IMG/VR virus record: IMGVR_UViG_2541047821_000007
Reading direction: 5' to 3' (one strand)
Length of the DNA: 41,934 nt
Source of the DNA: a virus
Taxonomy: Duplodnaviria > Heunggongvirae > Uroviricota > Caudoviricetes
The notes beneath the pieces are model-generated. The model had not been told where the DNA came from. It ran no database searches and saw only the letters and a list, made by a program, of their open reading frames with translations. A program made the position numbers and the translations under genes. Below, piece after piece: positions 12,990 to 23,042 of this stretch. The first letter of the stretch is position 1; every line of letters begins with the position of its first letter.

Positions 12990-13319
12990 CTATGCCACGA
13001 CCTGTTCAAAATCTGCCGTTATGGTTACCCACAACGCCCCCACGCTTGCCGACCATTTACGACAAACCACCCTGATCGGCTTCCAGTCATAAGGTGGCGT
13101 CCACTGAAATGCGCGGACGCCACCGTGCCGTTCCAGAAAGGCTTTTAAAGATGGGTGTTCACATTTACGAACACGTATCGTCACGCTGTAAGTCGACAAC
13201 TGGTTATTCAGTCCCGCCGCACGACGCTGTTCATAACCATCGCCAAGCTTCACTGTCACCACTTTCGGCTCTGATACCACATTCATATCCGGGCGCACTT
13301 TCCAGTGAAACGTCTCCAT
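12990..13319 (-). CDS. M: minor tail protein M
   Basis: 109 aa, lambda M length; start overlaps H stop. Confidence 0.85.
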   Translation of the reverse strand: METFHWKVRPDMNVVSEPKVVTVKLGDGYEQRRAAGLNNQLSTYSVTIRVRKCEHPSLKAFLERHGGVRAFQWTPPYDWKPIRVVCRKWSASVGALWVTITADFEQVVA

Positions 13320-16300
13320 TACCGATATGCTCCACTTAACCGACCACCATCACGGGCCTGCTGTTGCATAAAGTCCGCTGCCGCTTTTTTCCCGAGGTCA
13401 TAAACCGCCTTCAGGGCAGCCGGACCTATCTGCCCGTTCGTGCCATCGTTATTGATCTCGATGTTGTACTGCGGGGAAAACATCGCCATACCTGAACCCC
13501 CAATATCCGCCACAACCCCCAGCTTACCGTCAGCACCACGACGCAATGGCAGAATGGCTTCAGGTCCCGCTTCCCCCATCACACCCGCGCCTTTTGCAAA
13601 AGCAAAAAACGTCGGACGGTTAACCACCGTGCCACTGTAACGACTCAAATCAGCAGACTGATAAATCCCCCCATTGGCATTCAGGGAAAGGCTGCTGAGA
13701 TCAAATCCCAGCACACTGCCAATCCCTTTTATCGATTTCATCATGGTTGCCTGCGCCAGGATTTTCGCCATATCTGACAGCACAGAAGAGGTGAAGGATT
13801 TGAAATTGAGTTTGCCGGTAGTGACAAAAGTTGCCAGGCCATTTCCCATGTTGCTGAAGGCTGACGAGAACACCTGTTCTGCTGTTCCTGCCGTATTATC
13901 TGCATCCACGGTAAAATCCTGAAATGCACGCAGGACTCCGTTTTTCCAGTTACCCTGCACAACTTCAAGCTGTTGCCAGTAACGGCGATTCTCATTCAGT
14001 TGTCGGTTCAGGCTCTCCGTCAGCGCCTGCTCGGCCTTTCTGTAGTCATCCGTGTTATATGTTCCTTTCTGCTCACTATCCCGCCTCAACTGCTCCAGCT
14101 GTTGCTGGTATTTCTGGCGAAGACTCAGTTGTACCTGATATCGCTGCCGCTGCTGATCACCCATACCCACCGTGGCGATATCCAGGTCATGTTGCTGACG
14201 CTGAGCGCGCTCTTCTTCAGCCAGTTGACTGGTCAGCTGAATTGTTTTTTTCTTCAGCTCGTTGAGTGCCGTCTGTTTCTGAAGCTCCTGCTGTTTTACA
14301 TCCAGCAGCGTCAGTGCCTGAATCAGTTCATCTTTACGGGCCAGCACACTCTTTTCATCTGCCGTCAGTTTTTTCCCGTCCAGGTCGCTGATGCGCTGCT
14401 GCAGAGCCAGAAGCTGTTTATGCGCTTCTGTCATCCTTTCCGTGGCAATGCCTGCTGACTGTCTGGCAGCAGCAATCTGTCCTTCCACCTGTGCCTGTTG
14501 CTGACTGTACTGCAGCAATAACCGGGTGGCCTCATCATTACGGGGTTCGCGTGTTTTTTTCTTACCGGATGCCAGGGCTTTCTCGTAACGTTCATTTTCA
14601 CGTTGTATCGCTGCATCCCTGACAGCCTGATCGGCGTACTGCATGGAATTAATACGCGCAATTTCACGCTGATGTCGTGCTGCTTCCGTTTCATTCATCC
14701 GGTTCAGTGCAGCATTTTCAGCATTACGTCGTTTCTGTTGCTCCTGATAATTCCGCTCTGCCTGCTCTTTTGCATCCTGCAAATCCTTCTGGCGTTTTTT
14801 CTCCTGAAGATCGTTAAGACGCTGCTGATCGTATTCAACCTGAGAAGATGATGCCGTCCAGGGGAGTCTTTTCGCCCGCGACACTTTCTCCTGTAAAGCG
14901 GCAATCTGTTCATCCAGCGAGTCTTCACGACCAATATTCATGGCCGCATCCCAGAAACGACTCCACAAATCAGACAGATACTTCAGCGTACTGCCAAGCG
15001 CATTGAGGTTATTATCAATATCCGCAGTACGCCGACCGGTTTCCTCTGCCAGTGCAGACATGGCTATCCGTGCAGCATCACTGGACCGTCCCTGATCCCC
15101 AAGGACACGTATCTGCTCAAGCTGAGTGGCAGTAAGAAAATGCAGCTCATTGTCCAGAGCCTTCGCGGCATTTACAGGATCATCCTTCAGCCGCTTAAAC
15201 TGATTTATGGTATCGCTGACCGACTGGCCAACCGATCGCTCCATCTGTGCGGCAGCTCTCGCCACCATACCGATATCGTTTCCACGAAATGCACCACTCC
15301 CCACCACCTGAGCCAGCGCACCGGCTGCAGCATGTTGCGTGATACCATTCCCGGAAATAGCACGACTGAGCGTCCACAGCTGCCCGGCAGTGACTCCGGC
15401 ATAATGCCCCGTCAGCGACAACTGGCGGTTAAATTCTTCCCCCTCCTTCTGACCGTCATACCAGGCTTTACCCAGACCATAGACGGACGCGGCAATACCG
15501 CCAATAACCCCGCCAAGCATCATGCCTTTCGGTGACATCAGAGTGTCTATCCATCCGGCACGGTTAGCCAGCGTTATCCCGGATCCCCTCAGCGCCCCTA
15601 AATTGCCGCGGGCCAGTTCACCTATCAGAACGCCAATCTCCTGGCGGGCCGCTGCACTTTTCAGACCCAGCGAATGCGTGGCTTTTCCTGCCTGCTCCAT
15701 TTTGCGGATATACACTTCTGCAGCACTGCTTACCCCCAGCTGGGCAGCCTTAGCACGAAGCAACTCAGAAGAAGAAAGATTCTGGCGGGTTGCCTGCTCT
15801 TTAAGCTGACGGATAAACGCCACTTTCTGTCGGGTAGCCTCTTCCTCAGCCTGCGTAAGAACACGGGTTTTCGCCGTAACCTCAGAAATCAGCGCCAGAT
15901 AATCCTGCTGACCAATCCCGCCACTGTTTCTGGCCTGTCGGATCTGCTGCTGAATACGCTGTAATTCCTGCAGCCCCGCACTGGCCTGTTTCACACTGTC
16001 AATCTGACGATAAAACGCGGCAGCCGCTTTATCCTGAGCCTCCGCCAGAGCCATGGCCTGCGCCTGTTCCTCGCGCATTTTCTGGCTCAGTGCCTCCATA
16101 CGCTGGCGGGTTTGCTCCACCTCGCGGGCCATGCGTTCATGAGCCTGTGCGCTCTTCTCCACCGTCTGCGCATGGACGGATGCGGCTGTTGCAGCCGAAG
16201 AAGCCGCCTGCATTGTCTGCCGGGCGGCCTGAGTCTGACGCTCCATAAAACGCTGCATACGGGCAGAAGACCGTTCTGCATCGCTGGCTGCACCATTCAG

Positions 16301-16384
16301 AAGGTTTTTGATACGGGGAATTTCATTTTTAAACTCTGCCGCATCAATCCCCAAATCAATGACCAGGTTGGCTATCTGGTCCAT
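13319..16384 (-). CDS. H: tail tape measure protein H
   Basis: Over 1000 aa, coiled-coil rich, C-terminal NNDGTNGQIGPAALKAVYD motif shared with lambda H; start ambiguous (track first start 16414, internal ATG 16384). Confidence 0.85.
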   Translation of the reverse strand: MDQIANLVIDLGIDAAEFKNEIPRIKNLLNGAASDAERSSARMQRFMERQTQAARQTMQAASSAATAASVHAQTVEKSAQAHERMAREVEQTRQRMEALSQKMREEQAQAMALAEAQDKAAAAFYRQIDSVKQASAGLQELQRIQQQIRQARNSGGIGQQDYLALISEVTAKTRVLTQAEEEATRQKVAFIRQLKEQATRQNLSSSELLRAKAAQLGVSSAAEVYIRKMEQAGKATHSLGLKSAAARQEIGVLIGELARGNLGALRGSGITLANRAGWIDTLMSPKGMMLGGVIGGIAASVYGLGKAWYDGQKEGEEFNRQLSLTGHYAGVTAGQLWTLSRAISGNGITQHAAAGALAQVVGSGAFRGNDIGMVARAAAQMERSVGQSVSDTINQFKRLKDDPVNAAKALDNELHFLTATQLEQIRVLGDQGRSSDAARIAMSALAEETGRRTADIDNNLNALGSTLKYLSDLWSRFWDAAMNIGREDSLDEQIAALQEKVSRAKRLPWTASSSQVEYDQQRLNDLQEKKRQKDLQDAKEQAERNYQEQQKRRNAENAALNRMNETEAARHQREIARINSMQYADQAVRDAAIQRENERYEKALASGKKKTREPRNDEATRLLLQYSQQQAQVEGQIAAARQSAGIATERMTEAHKQLLALQQRISDLDGKKLTADEKSVLARKDELIQALTLLDVKQQELQKQTALNELKKKTIQLTSQLAEEERAQRQQHDLDIATVGMGDQQRQRYQVQLSLRQKYQQQLEQLRRDSEQKGTYNTDDYRKAEQALTESLNRQLNENRRYWQQLEVVQGNWKNGVLRAFQDFTVDADNTAGTAEQVFSSAFSNMGNGLATFVTTGKLNFKSFTSSVLSDMAKILAQATMMKSIKGIGSVLGFDLSSLSLNANGGIYQSADLSRYSGTVVNRPTFFAFAKGAGVMGEAGPEAILPLRRGADGKLGVVADIGGSGMAMFSPQYNIEINNDGTNGQIGPAALKAVYDLGKKAAADFMQQQARDGGRLSGAYR

Positions 16385-16706
16385 AACGCACACCTCCGGA
16401 AATACCTTCCCCAAGATGCATCAGTTCTTCGTCCGTTCGCTCCGGTATCCCGTTCTCTTCCGGTAAAAGGCTGAAATCAGCCACCGCAGCATCACTGCTA
16501 CCGGACACCATTCTCACGATCAATGCCTTCAGCGAGGCAAACTGCGCATCCATCCACACATCACTGAAGCTCTGCATCCGGAAATAATCGCCCCACTCAC
16601 CAAGCTCAGTGGCCGACATTTCCGACAGCATCCGCCGCCAGTCTGCCCGCCGGAACTCCCGGGCAAGCCGCATGACAAACTGCATTTCCCGCGTCAGGAC
16701 TTTTCC
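16356..16706 (-). CDS. T: T portion of the G-T tail assembly chaperone, reached by -1 frameshift from G
   Basis: -1 frame stays open from 16718 through a ~22-nt overlap with the G 3' end (16697..16718); position between G and H as in lambda. Confidence 0.7.
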   Translation of the reverse strand, partial: GKVLTREMQFVMRLAREFRRADWRRMLSEMSATELGEWGDYFRMQSFSDVWMDAQFASLKALIVRMVSGSSDAAVADFSLLPEENGIPERTDEELMHLGEGISGGVRYGPDSQPGH

Positions 16707-17083
16707 GGCGTCAGCACCTCATGCTCCAAATCCCCGGCATTCTCAATGACTCCCATACCGCTCAGCGACAGAACCATCTCCGCCCCCGCTCCCAGGGCAT
16801 CATACGACCATGTTGTAATAACGGATGCGCAAAGCGTCTCAACATCCTGAGACTGTTCCGCATTCCACAGTGAGCGGGAAACCAGCCAGGCATTGATATC
16901 CATCCCCATCCGCAGAAAAGCAATCTGTCGTTCAGCCTCCGGCAGTTCTCCCTCTTCGGCATCAAACTTTGCCGTTCGCTGCTGAACAAACGCCAGATAT
17001 TCAATTCTCTGCAGCCCGGACAGCTCACTGAGCACCACGGACTGCTTTTCATAATTAAACGTGCCCTGTTTCAGAAACATCAT
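16694..17083 (-). CDS. G: tail assembly chaperone G
   Basis: MMFLKQGTFNYEKQSVVLSELSGLQRIEYLAF resembles lambda G N-terminus; GGTGGAG SD before the ATG pair at 17083/17080. Confidence 0.8.
   Translation of the reverse strand: MMFLKQGTFNYEKQSVVLSELSGLQRIEYLAFVQQRTAKFDAEEGELPEAERQIAFLRMGMDINAWLVSRSLWNAEQSQDVETLCASVITTWSYDALGAGAEMVLSLSGMGVIENAGDLEHEVLTPEKS
16700..16707 (-). promoter_or_regulatory. candidate -1 programmed frameshift site for G-T
   Basis: mRNA CCG GAA AAG UCC UGA; an A_AAG lysine slip 2 codons before the G stop enters the T frame. Confidence 0.5.
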
Positions 17084-17096
17084 GTTCTCCACCTGC

Positions 17097-17120
17097 AAAA
17101 AAGCCCCGGATAACCGGGGC
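17097..17120 (-). terminator. terminator-like hairpin in the V-G intergenic region
   Basis: Minus-strand GCCCCGG-TTAT-CCGGGGC followed by TTTTTT, directly before the G RBS. Confidence 0.55.
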
Positions 17121-17140: not shown

Positions 17141-17890
17141 TTAACCTGCGGCGCTGACAGCCACCGCAGCCACTGCCACAAAATCGCCGTCAGAAGTCAT
17201 GCCCACAATGCTGACACTGCCCTGCTTCACGCCTTTCACCGTGGCCACAAGCCCGTTCAGGGTCACCGTGGCAGTCTGTGGATCTGTCGAATGCACACTG
17301 ATCGCTTTGTCACTGGCTCCGTCAGGTTTTACTGTAAAGGTCAGCGTGGTGGTTGCTCCCACTTTTACACTGGCAGATGCCGGTGCCACCGTCAGCCCGG
17401 TAACGCTCACTGTTTCAGTGCCTTCCTCTGCCAGATACGGACGCCCCACACCGCTGATTTTCACTGTGCGGGTCATCACGTCTTTTGAGGCAATGGTTTT
17501 ACCCAGTGAGCTCAGCCAGCCACGGAAAACATCAACAGTGCCGTTGGGATATTTGATACGAAACGCGCAGACTTCACCGGAGTCGAACAACTGAACCAGT
17601 TTTTTCTGCCCGCTGTCACCCGGACGCCAGGCCAGCGTCGCCGAAGTATCACCGACGGATTTCTGCCCCTGGGTTGTCGTTTTCCAGTCTGCATCTTCAT
17701 CATCGAGATAAGTGTCATCTTCTGCATCAGCGGTCATTTCGCCAGGTTGCAGATCCTTCACCATCGCAAGACGCAGCCAGTCAGTGTCCGATAAAGGGTT
17801 CGCAAACGCATCGCCCTTGCCGGTGTACATCCAGAACGTCGTTCCCGCACCTTTCGTTTTTGCCAGTGGATTTGGTGTGGTCATTGCCAC
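17141..17890 (-). CDS. V: major tail protein V with C-terminal Ig-like domain
   Basis: 249 aa; KGAGTTFWMYTGKGDAFANPLSD and YLDDEDADW match the lambda V pattern. Confidence 0.9.
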   Translation of the reverse strand: MAMTTPNPLAKTKGAGTTFWMYTGKGDAFANPLSDTDWLRLAMVKDLQPGEMTADAEDDTYLDDEDADWKTTTQGQKSVGDTSATLAWRPGDSGQKKLVQLFDSGEVCAFRIKYPNGTVDVFRGWLSSLGKTIASKDVMTRTVKISGVGRPYLAEEGTETVSVTGLTVAPASASVKVGATTTLTFTVKPDGASDKAISVHSTDPQTATVTLNGLVATVKGVKQGSVSIVGMTSDGDFVAVAAVAVSAAG

Positions 17891-19561: not shown

Positions 19562-21520
19562 TTACGCCGTACATTTCACCAGACCGCGGTGATCAACTGG
19601 CGCGACACCGGCGTCAATACGCACTTTCGTTGTCACGCCATCCACACTGAAGCCCTCCATCTGATCAATATATGGCGTATCCACACCGTTGAGATAAGCC
19701 ACTTCAATCGTATCGGAGCCTTTTGACGCAGCCAGGTAGAAGGTGGTCTGGCTGTTATCATCAAGACGAGGCTCTGCAATAACGGTCGCAAAATCTTTCA
19801 CCGGGTTAATAATACCGGCGTTAATGTCAGCCCCCTTGACACTTGAGGAGCGAATGACCTGGTTAGCAACAGACTCCATCGCCGTCGGTACCAGTACGAA
19901 CGCAGGACGAATATTCAGATGACGCTCCCCCTCTTTCTGAACGCGCATCAACTGGCGGGCTTTATCCAGCGATGCCACGTCCATTGCAGCGCTCTCCAGT
20001 ACGTTTGCATGTTTCGCTTTATCGAACAGACTTACATTATCTGTGGAGATTTTCGGGTTAGACGTCAGAATGGCATAAACCAGATCGGCAATAGTGGATT
20101 TCGCCGCACGGCCCAGTTTCATCGGGACATCGGTCAGCATATTCAGATCATCATTGATAATGGCCTGACGGGTGATACTGAACAGCTCGCCATAGGTCGC
20201 CAGTGCAATAGTGGCCTGTTTATCTCCGGTGGTGACGTATTTATATTCCGCCCCTTCACGCACCTGACGTAGAGCACTGAAGCCCCCCATACCCACACGA
20301 TGGGCAATTTTAAAATCAGACAACTGACCTTTCCGCGTCCACTGTTCATAGGTTTCAGGGGCATCTTCCCAGCCCTGCAGAATGGCTTTGTTCGCAACAT
20401 CCAGCAGAATATTACCGAAGTCAGACGTACTGTGTGTGAACGCCGCACCGACCATCTGCATCGGGTTATAACCGGAAACCCCAATACCCCGTTCAGTTAG
20501 TGACATACGGGCATATTCACGCAGGGTCATCCCGTTGTAGACATTATCACGTTCGGTTTTTTCAAATCCGGCACGCGCCATCAGCGCCTGGCGAATCCCG
20601 TCCCCCACAAAATTACCGTTACCGGCATAAATATGAGCCGGGGTATTTTTATTGGATGGCGTGGACTCGCGCCCCATCTCGTTCAACAGCTTTTCACGGG
20701 CCTGCTCCAGCGAACATTCAGGATCGGCAAGACACTGGGCCTGCAGCGTCTGATAACGCCCGCCAAACATGGCAAACAGATCATTAATACCGTTTACACG
20801 CGCTTTTTGCTCTGCCAGTACCTGCGCACGGATACTGTTTTCATCCACCACGGGTGCTGCTGCCTGCACTGGCGTCCGGGAGGCTGCAGGTTCATCATCC
20901 TGTACGCGTGGAGCACTGTTGCGTGGCGGAGTAATCATGTTTCGAATGGATTCCGGCATCTTTTTAAATTCCTCTGTACGTTTTGACTGAATACATGCCA
21001 TTGCCTTAACGGCTGGTGTCACCTGATCAGCAAATCCCTGTGCCAGACATTCGGCACCGGACATCCAGGTCTCATCCGCCAGCATGGCAGCAATTTCATC
21101 GGTGGTTTTCCCGGTTTTCTGTGCATAAGCGGGTAACAGAACCGCCTCAACTTTATCGAGCAGGTCGGCATAGGTGCGCATGTCCTCCGCATCACCGCCC
21201 GTAAAGCCAAATGGTTTATGAATCATCATGAAGGAGTTTTCCGGCATAATGACCGGGTTTCCCACCATCGCAATGACCGACGCCATTGACGCCGCCACAC
21301 CGTCGACATAAACGGTAATGGACGCACCATGTGTTTTCAGTGCATTAAAAATGGCGATGCCTTCAAAGACATCGCCACCCGGTGAATTAATATGGAGATT
21401 AATGTGGGTGATATCGCCCAGTGCATTCAGATCACTGATAAACTGCTTCGCTGTAACACCCCAGAAACCAATCTCGTCATAAATATAAATATCCGCGTCA
21501 CTCTGGTGACCTGCCTGCAT
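19562..21520 (-). CDS. prohead protease (ClpP-like) / scaffold / major capsid fusion protein
   Basis: Trimmed to ATG 21520 (MQAGHQSDADIYIYDEIGFWG) so it no longer overlaps portal; N-terminal ClpP-type fold motifs, C-terminal ~300 aa capsid-like. Confidence 0.75.
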   Translation of the reverse strand: MQAGHQSDADIYIYDEIGFWGVTAKQFISDLNALGDITHINLHINSPGGDVFEGIAIFNALKTHGASITVYVDGVAASMASVIAMVGNPVIMPENSFMMIHKPFGFTGGDAEDMRTYADLLDKVEAVLLPAYAQKTGKTTDEIAAMLADETWMSGAECLAQGFADQVTPAVKAMACIQSKRTEEFKKMPESIRNMITPPRNSAPRVQDDEPAASRTPVQAAAPVVDENSIRAQVLAEQKARVNGINDLFAMFGGRYQTLQAQCLADPECSLEQAREKLLNEMGRESTPSNKNTPAHIYAGNGNFVGDGIRQALMARAGFEKTERDNVYNGMTLREYARMSLTERGIGVSGYNPMQMVGAAFTHSTSDFGNILLDVANKAILQGWEDAPETYEQWTRKGQLSDFKIAHRVGMGGFSALRQVREGAEYKYVTTGDKQATIALATYGELFSITRQAIINDDLNMLTDVPMKLGRAAKSTIADLVYAILTSNPKISTDNVSLFDKAKHANVLESAAMDVASLDKARQLMRVQKEGERHLNIRPAFVLVPTAMESVANQVIRSSSVKGADINAGIINPVKDFATVIAEPRLDDNSQTTFYLAASKGSDTIEVAYLNGVDTPYIDQMEGFSVDGVTTKVRIDAGVAPVDHRGLVKCTA

Positions 21521-21533
21521 CCTGAACCAGGAA

Positions 21534-23042
21534 TTATTCTTCGGACTGGTCGTCGGTGTGCTGCGGCTCCTGTCGTTTCGTTGCGGCACTGCTGCCTCCT
21601 TTATCACTGGCCGGATCGGTATCAAATACCAGATCCAGCTTGCGGTTTTCATCAATTTCGGCCTTGCGCCGACGTTTGACATCATCCGGATTACGACCAC
21701 CTGCACGTACCCAGTCTGATTCTGTCGCCGCTCCACCACGAATCTGAATTTTCCAGGCCTCAGCCTCCTTAACAGGGTCAATCCACGGCATCACCGGTCC
21801 GGAATACACCGCGGTATACAGTGAAGAACGATCAAGATCGCGGGGTAGCCTGATAACACCGGATGCCACAGCCTGTTTCAGCCAGGCACGATACATCGGG
21901 CGGGTGACGGCACCAATAAACCAGTCCTGCAGGATCAGGTAGCCATCAGTGGATTCAACCAGCTCCTGACGCTGGGCGCTGTAAGTGCCGTTATAGTTGC
22001 GTGCCGTACTGGAAAAACTCAGACGACTGCCCGCCGCCACGGCACGCAACTGACCATTACGAAAAGTTTCAAGGTTAGGATTGGGACGATCCGACTTCAC
22101 CATTCCGATTTCTTCGCCGGGTTTCAGATCGTCGTAAATAATGCCTGGCTGAATGGTAAGCTCGCGTTCATTCTCCTTGCTGCCATTACCATCCGGTTCA
22201 TAGCTCTGCCCGTCGCCTTTCCGGATGTACATCCCCAGAGCAGCGGCGATCCTTGCTGCAGTCAGCTCAGAATCTTCATACTCTTTCAGGGCACTGAGGC
22301 GGATCAGCACACCGGACAACAAAGACGTCCCGCGCATCTGGTGCAGACGGCGAACAAATTTAAGATGCAGCATTCGCTCTGCATCCACTTCTTTGGTTTC
22401 CATCTGCCGCCCGGATACGGGACGGCTTTTATACACCAGATATTTTTCGGGACGCCCCCAGTCATCAACAAACACGCCCTGATTCAGCCTGTTGCTCTCA
22501 TCACTGGTCATGGGAATAAAGTCCGGCTCGAGCGCCTCCAGCCAGAAATGAACACCGGCAGAAGGCGTCAGGCTGTTTATGCGCCCGGAAACCATCTGGG
22601 CAAACACCTCACCATCGCGCAGCCAGGTACGCAGCATCAGACGTTCCAGCATCGGACGGGTAAACTGCCCGGTGACTTCCGGACTGACAGACCATTCACT
22701 CCATCGGGTGCGTATCTCCGCTGCCAGATCACGGGCAATGGCCCCATTGCGTAATACCGGATGTGGCTCGACAATAATCCCGTTTTTCCCCACCACCCGT
22801 TCTTCCAGCTTGTCAAATACACCAATAACCAGATCGTGGTTGTTATCAAGGTAACGGGCCTGCTCACGTAACGACACGGCCCCGTACTGGCTTAACTGGT
22901 CGGCAGTTCGGTTTTCCCGCCGGGCTTTGTGTGTCCGTGTCGTTTTTACGGCCTCATAAGCCTGGATCACCGCACGGGAACGCAGCCTTGCCGCTTTCCA
23001 TCCTGGTGAAAAAACGCCAATCACATCATCAAGAATTGCCAT
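21534..23042 (-). CDS. portal protein
   Basis: Start MAILDD at 23042 overlaps the W-like stop (TGATG); ~500 aa, between W-like gene and protease/capsid. Confidence 0.85.
   Translation of the reverse strand: MAILDDVIGVFSPGWKAARLRSRAVIQAYEAVKTTRTHKARRENRTADQLSQYGAVSLREQARYLDNNHDLVIGVFDKLEERVVGKNGIIVEPHPVLRNGAIARDLAAEIRTRWSEWSVSPEVTGQFTRPMLERLMLRTWLRDGEVFAQMVSGRINSLTPSAGVHFWLEALEPDFIPMTSDESNRLNQGVFVDDWGRPEKYLVYKSRPVSGRQMETKEVDAERMLHLKFVRRLHQMRGTSLLSGVLIRLSALKEYEDSELTAARIAAALGMYIRKGDGQSYEPDGNGSKENERELTIQPGIIYDDLKPGEEIGMVKSDRPNPNLETFRNGQLRAVAAGSRLSFSSTARNYNGTYSAQRQELVESTDGYLILQDWFIGAVTRPMYRAWLKQAVASGVIRLPRDLDRSSLYTAVYSGPVMPWIDPVKEAEAWKIQIRGGAATESDWVRAGGRNPDDVKRRRKAEIDENRKLDLVFDTDPASDKGGSSAATKRQEPQHTDDQSEE

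What the first reader, a model, noticed from the sequence alone, without database searches (positions are those of the whole stretch)
16697..16718. Conserved G-T programmed -1 frameshift window
G and T overlap in the arrangement expected for the lambda G/GT chaperone pair; the only slippery element in the 22-nt overlap is an A_AAG lysine slip (GGAAAAG) two codons before the G stop, which differs from the lambda GGGAAAG heptamer.
Basis: partly seen in the sequence, partly recalled or inferred. Interest (0 to 1): 0.4.

Follow-up and report, generated by a model that had tools for sequence, protein, structure and literature searches.

The report
Lambda-type G/GT tail chaperone frameshift
This is the well-known low-level -1 ribosomal frameshift that lambda-like phages use to make a small amount of a G-T fusion chaperone for tail assembly; the "unusual" slip sequence GGAAAAG turns out to be the commonest form in this gene family and is already marked as the slip site in public records for other phages, so the finding is real but ordinary.

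Summary
On the minus strand, a lambda gpG homologue (17083..16694) ends at TGA 16696..16694. A lambda gpT homologue lies in the -1 frame, open from 16718, so the overlap is 22 nt (16718..16697). The only slip-prone element in it is G_GAA_AAG (16706..16700), and AAG is the second-last sense codon of G.

The window is a mEp460/Ayreon/cdtI-type lambdoid coliphage with gene order V-G-T-H-M. The modelled fusion passes NCBIfam's lambda G and lambda T equivalog models.

Among 51 unique G/T junctions from roughly 25 enterobacterial genera, all carry in-phase GG[A/G]AAAG. GGAAAAG occurs in 43 and lambda's GGGAAAG in 8, while neighbouring wobble positions vary freely. Three further loci carry A_AAA-type motifs abutting the stop.

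No T-frame start codon is conserved. The same heptamer is already annotated as the slip site in phages N15 and LLS.

No downstream RNA structure stands out. An upstream SD-like GAGGUG is present here but is not conserved across the family.

Verdict: already known and low interest. The one practical point is that public records for this phage group, including RefSeq annotations found in 1847 E. coli genomes, call T from an internal ATG instead of joining G and T.

The parts
17141..17890 (-). Context: major tail tube gene (lambda V-like, with a C-terminal Ig-like domain), immediately upstream of G.
   Evidence: Pfam PF16461 Phage_TTP_12 at 6e-67 and Big_2 at 2e-11. ORF listed.
17103..17120 (-). 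Context: terminator-like hairpin (GCCCCGG-TTAT-CCGGGGC followed by a T run) between V and G. It probably lowers transcription into G, T and H relative to V.
   Evidence: Terminator scan. The equivalent site is annotated as a terminator in the Ayreon, mEp460 and N15 records.
16694..17083 (-). G gene, the zero-frame tail assembly chaperone: 129 aa from ATG 17083, or 128 aa from ATG 17080. Stop TGA at 16696..16694.
   Evidence: Translation. PF06894 at 7e-40. TIGR01674 equivalog at 187 bits. SD-like CAGGTGG lies 5-8 nt upstream of the start.
16715..16720 (-). SD-like GAGGTG inside G, 8 nt 5' of the heptamer. A possible lineage-specific enhancer of the shift; unproven.
   Evidence: -9.2 kcal/mol against the anti-SD, the strongest such match in its own G ORF. 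It reads GAGGCG in mEp460-type relatives and is absent in N15, phi80 and lambda; the family-wide test gives p = 0.058.
16719..16721 (-). TGA in the -1 (T) frame, which sets the 5' limit of the frameshift window.
16697..16718 (-).
16700..16706 (-). Slippery heptamer G_GAA_AAG. tRNA-Lys re-pairs from AAG to AAA, and tRNA-Glu re-pairs from GAA to GGA.
   Evidence: Sequence. Conserved in phase in all 51 unique family junctions as GGRAAAG. The same heptamer is annotated as the slip site in N15 and LLS.
16356..16700 (-). T segment in the -1 frame, read from base 16700 (re-read after the slip) to the stop at 16358..16356. With 17083..16700 it gives a 242-aa GT fusion.
   Evidence: The modelled fusion translates without a stop. 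PF06223 at 5e-15. TIGR01715 at 134 bits over residues 133-239. phrog_32165, annotated minor tail protein, matches the fusion across residues 2-238.
13319..16384 (-). Context: tape measure gene (lambda H-like). Its start overlaps the end of T by 29 nt.
   Evidence: PF06791, PF09718 and PF24622. Strong SD GGAGGTG 5 nt upstream of the ATG, -13.3 kcal/mol.

Best explanation
This is the lambda-type G/GT programmed -1 ribosomal frameshift of a mEp460/Ayreon/cdtI-like lambdoid coliphage.

Most ribosomes translate G (17083..16694) to its TGA and make the 129-aa chaperone. A small fraction slip back one base when GAA (Glu) is in the P site and AAG (Lys) is in the A site of G_GAA_AAG (16706..16700):
- tRNA-Lys re-pairs perfectly on AAA.
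- tRNA-Glu re-pairs on GGA, with Watson-Crick pairs at codon positions 1 and 3 and a G.U pair in the middle.

Translation then continues in the -1 frame (GTC CTG ACG...) to 16356. The product is a 242-aa G-T fusion with the junction ...LTPEK|VLTRE....

By analogy with lambda, many G molecules and a few GT molecules coat the tape measure protein, and the T domain recruits the tail tube protein. Neither protein ends up in the virion.

What is shown here: the anatomy, the homology, the gene order, the conservation of the heptamer and the lack of a conserved T start. What is inferred: that the shift actually happens, its rate, the P-site contribution and the assembly role.
For: Anatomy and homology:
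- The anatomy is exact.
- G and T pass Pfam and NCBIfam equivalog thresholds.
- The TIGR01715 match starts at fusion residue 133, upstream of the annotated ATG codon (residue 134).
- Gene order is V-G-T-H-M, as in lambda.

Conservation:
- In an alignment of fusion proteins from the window, Gifsy-2, N15, phi80 and lambda, the slip-site Lys is invariant and conserved T-frame residues follow immediately.
- In-phase GG[A/G]AAAG is present in all 51 unique junctions from roughly 25 enterobacterial genera (43 GGAAAAG, 8 GGGAAAG). The wobble positions just upstream have a commonest base at only about 0.3-0.5 frequency.
- Heptamer base 1 is G in 51 of 51 although it is the third base of GCG, CCG, CTG, GTG, TTG or ACG.
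- GAA is never replaced by the synonymous GAG, and AAG is never AAA, in these 51.
- The 3' neighbour is always a pyrimidine. The review PMC5009743 reports that a 3' C or CC favours shifting.

No independent T start:
- The T-frame codon aligned with the window's ATG is start-capable in only 7 of 55 unique homologues.
- Its SD-like match is weak and abuts the ATG, at -4.3 kcal/mol against -7.0 for G and -13.3 for the tape measure gene.

Precedent:
- N15 and LLS annotate this exact heptamer as the -1 slip site. Gifsy-2, at 54% identity with the same CCGGAAAAGTCCTGA, is annotated as a G+G' frameshift hybrid.
- Lambda G-T shifting, the 30:1 ratio and the assembly roles are established (PMC5009743).
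- A_AAG is the most shift-prone tetramer in E. coli (PMC4066793).
Against: - No protein or reporter data exist for this phage. I also found no open-access paper that measures shifting on G_GAA_AAG.
- The heptamer is not canonical, since XXX is GGA. Sharma et al. 2014 tested only heptamers with identical XXX. They found bare tetramers barely above background without a strong stimulator.
- No stimulator is evident. Downstream folding is no better than shuffled sequence (z = -0.96 and +0.09), and the upstream SD-like element is not conserved. The rate could therefore be well below lambda's.
- Conservation counts come from related sequences and are not independent events.
Confidence: 0.9

Rival explanations
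1. Single-tRNA slip. Only tRNA-Lys shifts at the tetramer A_AAG (or slips in the P site while TCC or the nearby stop is slowly decoded). The P-site tRNA-Glu does not re-pair. Adequate efficiency would then come from flanking context: the upstream SD-like GAGGUG, the pyrimidine 3' neighbour and the stop 3 nt away. The protein product is identical to that of the main explanation.
For: - A_AAG alone supports -1 shifting in E. coli. Hexanucleotide sites such as CGA_AAG are used naturally, by IS1222 and in Bacillus cdd (PMC5009743).
- GAGGUG lies 8 nt upstream, inside the 6-17 nt range in which SD-like stimulators were searched for (PMC4066793).
- In some relatives the heptamer abuts the stop codon.
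Against: - Heptamer base 1 is G in 51 of 51 unique junctions across six different codons, which a pure tetramer model does not require.
- Tetramers without a strong stimulator were at background.
- The SD-like element is absent from many family members that carry the same heptamer.
- No downstream structure stands out.
Confidence: 0.25
2. T is made on its own from the ATG at 16685, as current public annotations have it. One route would be termination-reinitiation after the G stop 8 nt upstream. On this reading the frame arrangement is incidental.
For: - An ATG exists 8 nt after the G stop.
- PGAP, mEp460 and Tritos annotate a 109-aa T from it.
Against: - That position is start-capable in only 7 of 55 unique homologues; most have CTG, CTT or CGT there.
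- The SD-like match is weak and abuts the ATG (-4.3 kcal/mol, zero spacing).
- T-frame conservation and the TIGR01715 match begin upstream of the ATG.
- The in-phase heptamer would have no reason to be invariant.
- In lambda, T is known only as part of the GT fusion (PMC5009743).
- Some free T made in addition to GT cannot be excluded.
Confidence: 0.04
3. The shift is made at the RNA level. RNA polymerase slips on the A4 run and produces mRNAs with one extra A (or two fewer), which encode the fusion directly.
For: Transcriptional slippage is used by some IS elements and phages as an alternative route to trans-frame products (PMC5009743).
Against: - By my own knowledge, the run is only four A's, and known slippage sites use much longer homopolymer runs.
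- The family conserves the whole phased heptamer, including the flanking G's, rather than run length.
- Lambda's site is established as ribosomal.
Confidence: 0.01

Closest known systems
Bacteriophage lambda gpG / gpGT (Levin, Hendrix and Casjens 1993; Xu, Hendrix and Duda 2004, 2013, 2014, as cited in PMC5009743)
   Same: Homologous G and T proteins (about 35% identity over the fusion). Same position between the tail tube and tape measure genes. T in the -1 frame. The slip is on a phased heptamer ending in A_AAG, with the Lys at the junction.
   Different: The heptamer is G_GAA_AAG rather than G_GGA_AAG, so the P-site codon is Glu GAA rather than Gly GGA. The G stop is 3 nt after the heptamer rather than 15 nt. 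The overlap is 22 nt rather than 61 nt. The T part is shorter (114 residues after the junction Lys against 144 in lambda, from the fusions modelled) and lacks lambda's C-terminal repeat.
Phage N15 gp14/gp15 (AF064539) and phage LLS genes 11/12 (PQ299149), with phi80 gp13/gp14
   Same: Identical heptamer GGAAAAG in the same phase. It is explicitly annotated as the -1 slippery sequence in N15 and LLS, and LLS has a joined CDS.
   Different: Only 36-40% protein identity. The G stop is 15 nt downstream. There is no SD-like element upstream. The phi80 record itself does not annotate the shift.
Salmonella prophage Gifsy-2 STM1039 / STM1041.1n
   Same: The closest annotated relative outside the E. 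coli group, at 54% identity. It has the same ...ACGCCGGAAAAGTCCTGA junction with the stop 3 nt after the heptamer. It is annotated as part of a G+G' frameshift hybrid.
   Different: A different upstream sequence (AGAGGA rather than GAGGTG). There is no ATG at the position of the window's T-frame ATG.
Hexanucleotide NNA_AAG sites (IS1222 G_CGA_AAG; Bacillus cdd A_CGA_AAG) and G_GAN_NNN heptamers of eukaryotic RNA viruses
   Same: These are shift sites where the A-site Lys slip on A_AAG does most of the work, or where X_XX is the imperfect G_GA (PMC5009743).
   Different: Those are in unrelated genes. The IS sites depend on strong downstream structures, and none is seen here.

Membership tests
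Lambda-type G/GT tail assembly chaperone pair with -1 frameshift | The upstream ORF is a gpG-family chaperone. | tested here: met
   PF06894 at 7e-40. TIGR01674 equivalog at 186.6 bits against a cutoff of 74.45. phrog_42.
Lambda-type G/GT tail assembly chaperone pair with -1 frameshift | The downstream segment is a gpT homologue in the -1 frame, with no conserved start of its own. | tested here: met
   PF06223 at 5e-15. TIGR01715 at 134.1 bits against a cutoff of 77.35, starting upstream of the ATG. Frame relation shown. Start codon not conserved: 7 of 55.
Lambda-type G/GT tail assembly chaperone pair with -1 frameshift | The pair lies between the major tail tube gene and the tape measure gene. 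| tested here: met
   V-like 17890..17141, G, T, then tape measure 16384..13319 and M-like 13319..12990.
Lambda-type G/GT tail assembly chaperone pair with -1 frameshift | A phased slippery sequence lies in the overlap and is conserved among homologues. | tested here: met
   G_GAA_AAG at 16706..16700. GGRAAAG is in phase in all 51 unique junctions, and flanking wobble positions vary.
Lambda-type G/GT tail assembly chaperone pair with -1 frameshift | The fusion protein is made at a low fixed ratio to G (about 1:30 in lambda). | not testable with these tools
   This needs a reporter assay, a western blot or mass spectrometry.
Lambda-type G/GT tail assembly chaperone pair with -1 frameshift | G and GT are both required for tail assembly and are absent from virions. 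| not testable with these tools
   This needs genetics and virion proteomics.
Canonical X_XXY_YYZ tandem-slip heptamer | XXX are three identical bases, allowing cognate P-site re-pairing. | tested here: not met
   X_XX is G_GA. GAA to GGA leaves a G.U at the middle position. The A-site part, A_AAG, is canonical.
dnaX / IS911-type stimulated -1 frameshift | An internal SD-like sequence lies 6-17 nt upstream of the shift site. | tested here: inconclusive
   GAGGTG lies 8 nt upstream at -9.2 kcal/mol in this window. It is GAGGCG in close relatives and absent in the N15/phi80/lambda types; p = 0.058.
dnaX / IS911-type stimulated -1 frameshift | A stable hairpin or pseudoknot lies a few nt downstream. 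| tested here: not met
   The 60-nt and 100-nt downstream segments fold no better than shuffles (z = +0.09 and -0.96).

The most novel reading that the evidence does not exclude
G_GAA_AAG would be a selected, non-canonical tandem-slip heptamer. On this reading tRNA-Glu re-pairs on GGA through a central G.U pair, and the site is the preferred one (43 of 51 junctions) of the enterobacterial lambda-type G/T family, chosen over the canonical G_GGA_AAG to set a particular G:GT ratio. In this lineage an internal SD-like GAGGUG 8 nt upstream, and a stop codon 3 nt downstream, might tune it further. This heptamer class was not covered by the systematic E. coli survey, which tested only heptamers with identical XXX.
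Probability: 0.35. Interest if true: 0.3.

Novelty: already known. Interest (0 to 1): 0.1.

Why it matters
There is little new biology here. The G/GT frameshift is a textbook recoding event, and this exact heptamer is already annotated as the slip site in N15 and LLS.

The practical value is annotation. This module is present in 1847 of 5426 complete E. coli genomes and in phages such as mEp460, Ayreon, Tritos and cdtI. There T is called from an internal ATG and the essential GT fusion is not annotated.

A minor mechanistic point may be worth a reporter assay. The family prefers the imperfect G_GAA_AAG to lambda's G_GGA_AAG and keeps the first G invariant. That suggests near-cognate P-site re-pairing tunes the G:GT ratio.

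Tried and rejected
- Downstream stimulatory structure: the 60 and 100 nt after the heptamer fold no better than shuffled controls. Rejected.
- Family-wide upstream SD-like stimulator: the site windows are not significantly stronger than other windows of the same G ORFs (p = 0.058), and the element is absent in N15, phi80 and lambda types. Kept only as a lineage-specific possibility.
- Other shift sites in the overlap: no other in-phase position allows A-site re-pairing.
- Independent initiation of T: weak, badly spaced SD-like match and no conserved start.
- Enrichment of the bare heptamer in the window: not significant, so it is not used as evidence.
- Literature searches for GGAAAAG or G GAA AAG together with phage frameshifting found nothing relevant in the open-access library.
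- Licznar et al. 2003, on NNA_AAG context, is not held, so I could not check where GAA ranks among P-site codons.
- The phi80 Tai paper does not discuss G/GT.
- No solved structure matches the fusion by sequence.
- My first regex-based locus parser missed about 10 loci. A second parser anchored on the T motif recovered most of them.

Full report
**What is in the sequence.** The finding lies on the minus strand. Reading that strand, an ORF from ATG 17083 (a second ATG is at 17080) runs to TGA 16696..16694. It encodes a 129-aa protein ending ...GDLEHEVLTPEKS. The frame one base behind it has a TGA at 16721..16719 and is then open from 16718 to a stop at 16358..16356. Within it the zero-frame codons are GTG CTG ACG CCG GAA AAG TCC. 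The only place where an A-site tRNA could re-pair one base back is G_GAA_AAG at 16706..16700.

**What the genes are.**
- The upstream ORF matches Pfam PF06894 (lambda tail assembly chaperone G, 7e-40). The -1 frame segment matches PF06223 (minor tail protein T, 5e-15).
- A modelled fusion (zero frame through AAG, then base 16700 re-read) is 242 aa with no internal stop.
- The fusion passes NCBIfam's equivalog models for lambda G (186.6 bits, residues 2-129) and lambda T (134.1 bits, residues 133-239).
- It also matches phrog_32165, annotated minor tail protein, across residues 2-238.
- The neighbours are a lambda V-like tail tube gene upstream, then a tape measure gene and an M-like minor tail gene downstream. 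That is the lambda order V-G-T-H-M.

**Where the window comes from.** The window is a mEp460-like lambdoid coliphage or prophage. The G-T region is 99.7% identical to phage Ayreon and 98% identical to mEp460 and cdtI. The rest of the window matches the same group. The G-T module occurs in 1847 of 5426 complete E. coli genomes.

**Is it more than chance?** In a single sequence the evidence is only modest. The bare heptamer is not enriched in the window (11 matches against 6.5 expected). An in-phase N_NNA_AAG occurs at 8 of 2979 codon positions in this phage's structural ORFs. The chance of one falling in a 22-nt overlap is therefore about 1.6%, and about 0.2% for GGRAAAG.

The comparative evidence is decisive. 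I collected G/T loci from viral contigs and from one genome per species and anchored them on the frame arrangement.
- Among 51 unique junction contexts from roughly 25 enterobacterial genera, at 33-66% protein identity to the window, every one has GG[A/G]AAAG in the same phase. GGAAAAG occurs 43 times and GGGAAAG 8 times.
- Wobble positions of the codons just upstream have a commonest base at only about 0.3-0.5 frequency. The heptamer positions are essentially invariant.
- Heptamer base 1 is G in all 51, although it is the third base of six different codons (GCG, CCG, CTG, GTG, TTG, ACG) that encode five amino acids.
- In these 51, GAA is never the synonymous GAG and AAG is never AAA.
- The base after the heptamer is always a pyrimidine.
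- Three further loci carry related motifs abutting the stop (G_GCA_AAA TAG and G_GGA_AAA TAG). In Proteus and Providencia the heptamer abuts TAG directly.
- These counts come from related sequences and are not independent events, but the contrast with neighbouring synonymous sites is clear.

**Does T have its own start?** The window has an ATG at 16685, 8 nt after the G stop, and public records use it or a later one. In the family, that codon is start-capable in only 7 of 55 unique sequences; it is usually CTG. No other early T-frame position has a conserved start. Conserved T-frame residues begin before it: Glu at +5 in 45 of 55, and Phe at +8 in 55 of 55. The best SD-like match upstream of this ATG is weak (-4.3 kcal/mol) and abuts the start codon. 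The corresponding values are -7.0 for G and -13.3 for the tape measure gene. Some reinitiation after the G stop cannot be excluded in this lineage, but it cannot be the conserved route to T.

**Mechanism.** The best-supported model is a low-level -1 ribosomal slip with GAA in the P site and AAG in the A site.
- E. coli's single tRNA-Lys re-pairs perfectly on AAA. A_AAG is the most shift-prone tetramer in E. coli (PMC4066793; PMC5009743).
- tRNA-Glu can re-pair on GGA with a central G.U pair. The invariance of the first G argues that this re-pairing contributes, so the site acts as an imperfect heptamer rather than a bare tetramer.
- That matters because Sharma et al. found tetramers at background level without a strong stimulator. 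They report about 0.3% for the three best V_VVA_AAG heptamers without one, rising to about 3.7% in the best 3' context.
- I found no stimulator that is a family feature. Downstream RNA folds no better than shuffled sequence (z = -0.96 and +0.09). An upstream SD-like element is not significantly enriched across the family (p = 0.058).
- In this window a GAGGUG does lie 8 nt upstream (16720..16715). At -9.2 kcal/mol it is the strongest anti-SD match in its G ORF. It reads GAGGCG in the mEp460-type relatives, so it is at most a lineage-specific enhancer.
- The always-pyrimidine 3' neighbour agrees with the reported 3'-context effect (PMC5009743).
- The assembly role is inferred from lambda. There G and GT coat the tape measure protein, the T domain recruits the tube protein, and the ratio is about 30:1 (PMC5009743).

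**Comparison with what is known.** The arrangement is homologous to lambda G/GT. It differs in the heptamer (G_GAA_AAG against G_GGA_AAG), in the distance to the G stop (3 nt against 15 nt) and in overlap length (22 nt against 61 nt).

The heptamer itself is not new:
- The N15 record (AF064539) marks GGAAAAG as the 'slippery sequence for -1 translational frameshift'.
- The LLS record (PQ299149) marks 'minus-one programmed translational frameshift site GGAAAAG' and has a joined CDS.
- phi80 has the same site.
- Gifsy-2, with the same CCGGAAAAGTCCTGA junction, is annotated as a G+G' frameshift hybrid.
- Imperfect G_GA-type heptamers are also recognised in several eukaryotic virus groups (PMC5009743).

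**Verdict.** The element is an ordinary, already known member of the lambda G/GT frameshift family, and its heptamer is the family's commonest form. Interest is low. Two points remain. First, public annotation of this very common E. coli prophage module omits the GT fusion. Second, a small mechanistic question is open: why does the family prefers the imperfect G_GAA_AAG, and does the first G act through P-site re-pairing? A handful of synonymous mutants in a reporter would settle it.

Noticed in passing
window 17103..17120 (minus strand): A terminator-like hairpin GCCCCGG-TTAT-CCGGGGC followed by a T run sits between the tail tube gene and G. The equivalent site is annotated as a terminator in the Ayreon, mEp460 and N15 records. 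It probably attenuates transcription into G, T and H relative to V.
   Followed up: partly
window 16715..16720 (minus strand): An SD-like GAGGTG lies inside G, 8 nt upstream of the heptamer, and overlaps the -1 frame TGA (TGAGGTG). It is the strongest anti-SD match in its G ORF (-9.2 kcal/mol). It reads GAGGCG in mEp460-type relatives and is absent in N15, phi80 and lambda.
   Followed up: yes
window 16356..16685; L001, L002, L003, L169: Public records for this phage group (Ayreon, mEp460, Tritos, and RefSeq PGAP annotation of E. coli prophages) call T as a separate CDS from an internal ATG, with no ribosomal-slippage join. The module is in 1847 of 5426 complete E. coli genomes, so the GT fusion is systematically under-annotated.
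   Followed up: yes
L140-L151 (genome contigs): Lambda-type G/T loci that share one junction sequence and the same 38% match to the query, identical to lambda over the 77 nt compared. They sit on short or low-coverage contigs of unrelated taxa: Kitasatospora, Neobacillus, Oceanobacillus, Shewanella, Leeuwenhoekiella, Pseudomonas, Paenibacillus and Chromatium. The most likely cause is lambda DNA contamination of those assemblies.
   Followed up: no
L089 and L131 (genome contigs): Two MAGs carry enterobacterial lambdoid G/T modules. One is labelled Bacillota bacterium and is 98% identical to the window's GT. The other is labelled Geobacteraceae and has a phi80-like junction. These are probably mis-binned contigs.
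   Followed up: no
L097, L099, L137; L105, L110-L112, L118, L154: Variant junctions occur in the same family. G_GCA_AAA is directly followed by TAG in Kluyvera and Ewingella. G_GGA_AAA is directly followed by TAG in Providencia rustigianii. GGAAAAG directly abuts TAG in Proteus and other Providencia. This suggests that the adjacent stop codon may help the slip in some lineages.
   Followed up: partly
window 16356..16384 (minus strand): The tape measure gene starts at ATG 16384, with a strong SD GGAGGTG 5 nt upstream, inside the 3' end of the T frame. The overlap is 29 nt, so tape measure initiation occurs within the GT coding region, as in lambda.
   Followed up: no
window 19562..21781 (minus strand): A single long ORF (listed as 739 aa from an upstream TTG) lies between the portal and head-tail genes. 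Related phage records annotate the corresponding region as a ClpP-like protease/scaffold protein, a head maturation protease or a major head protein. I did not examine it further.
   Followed up: no
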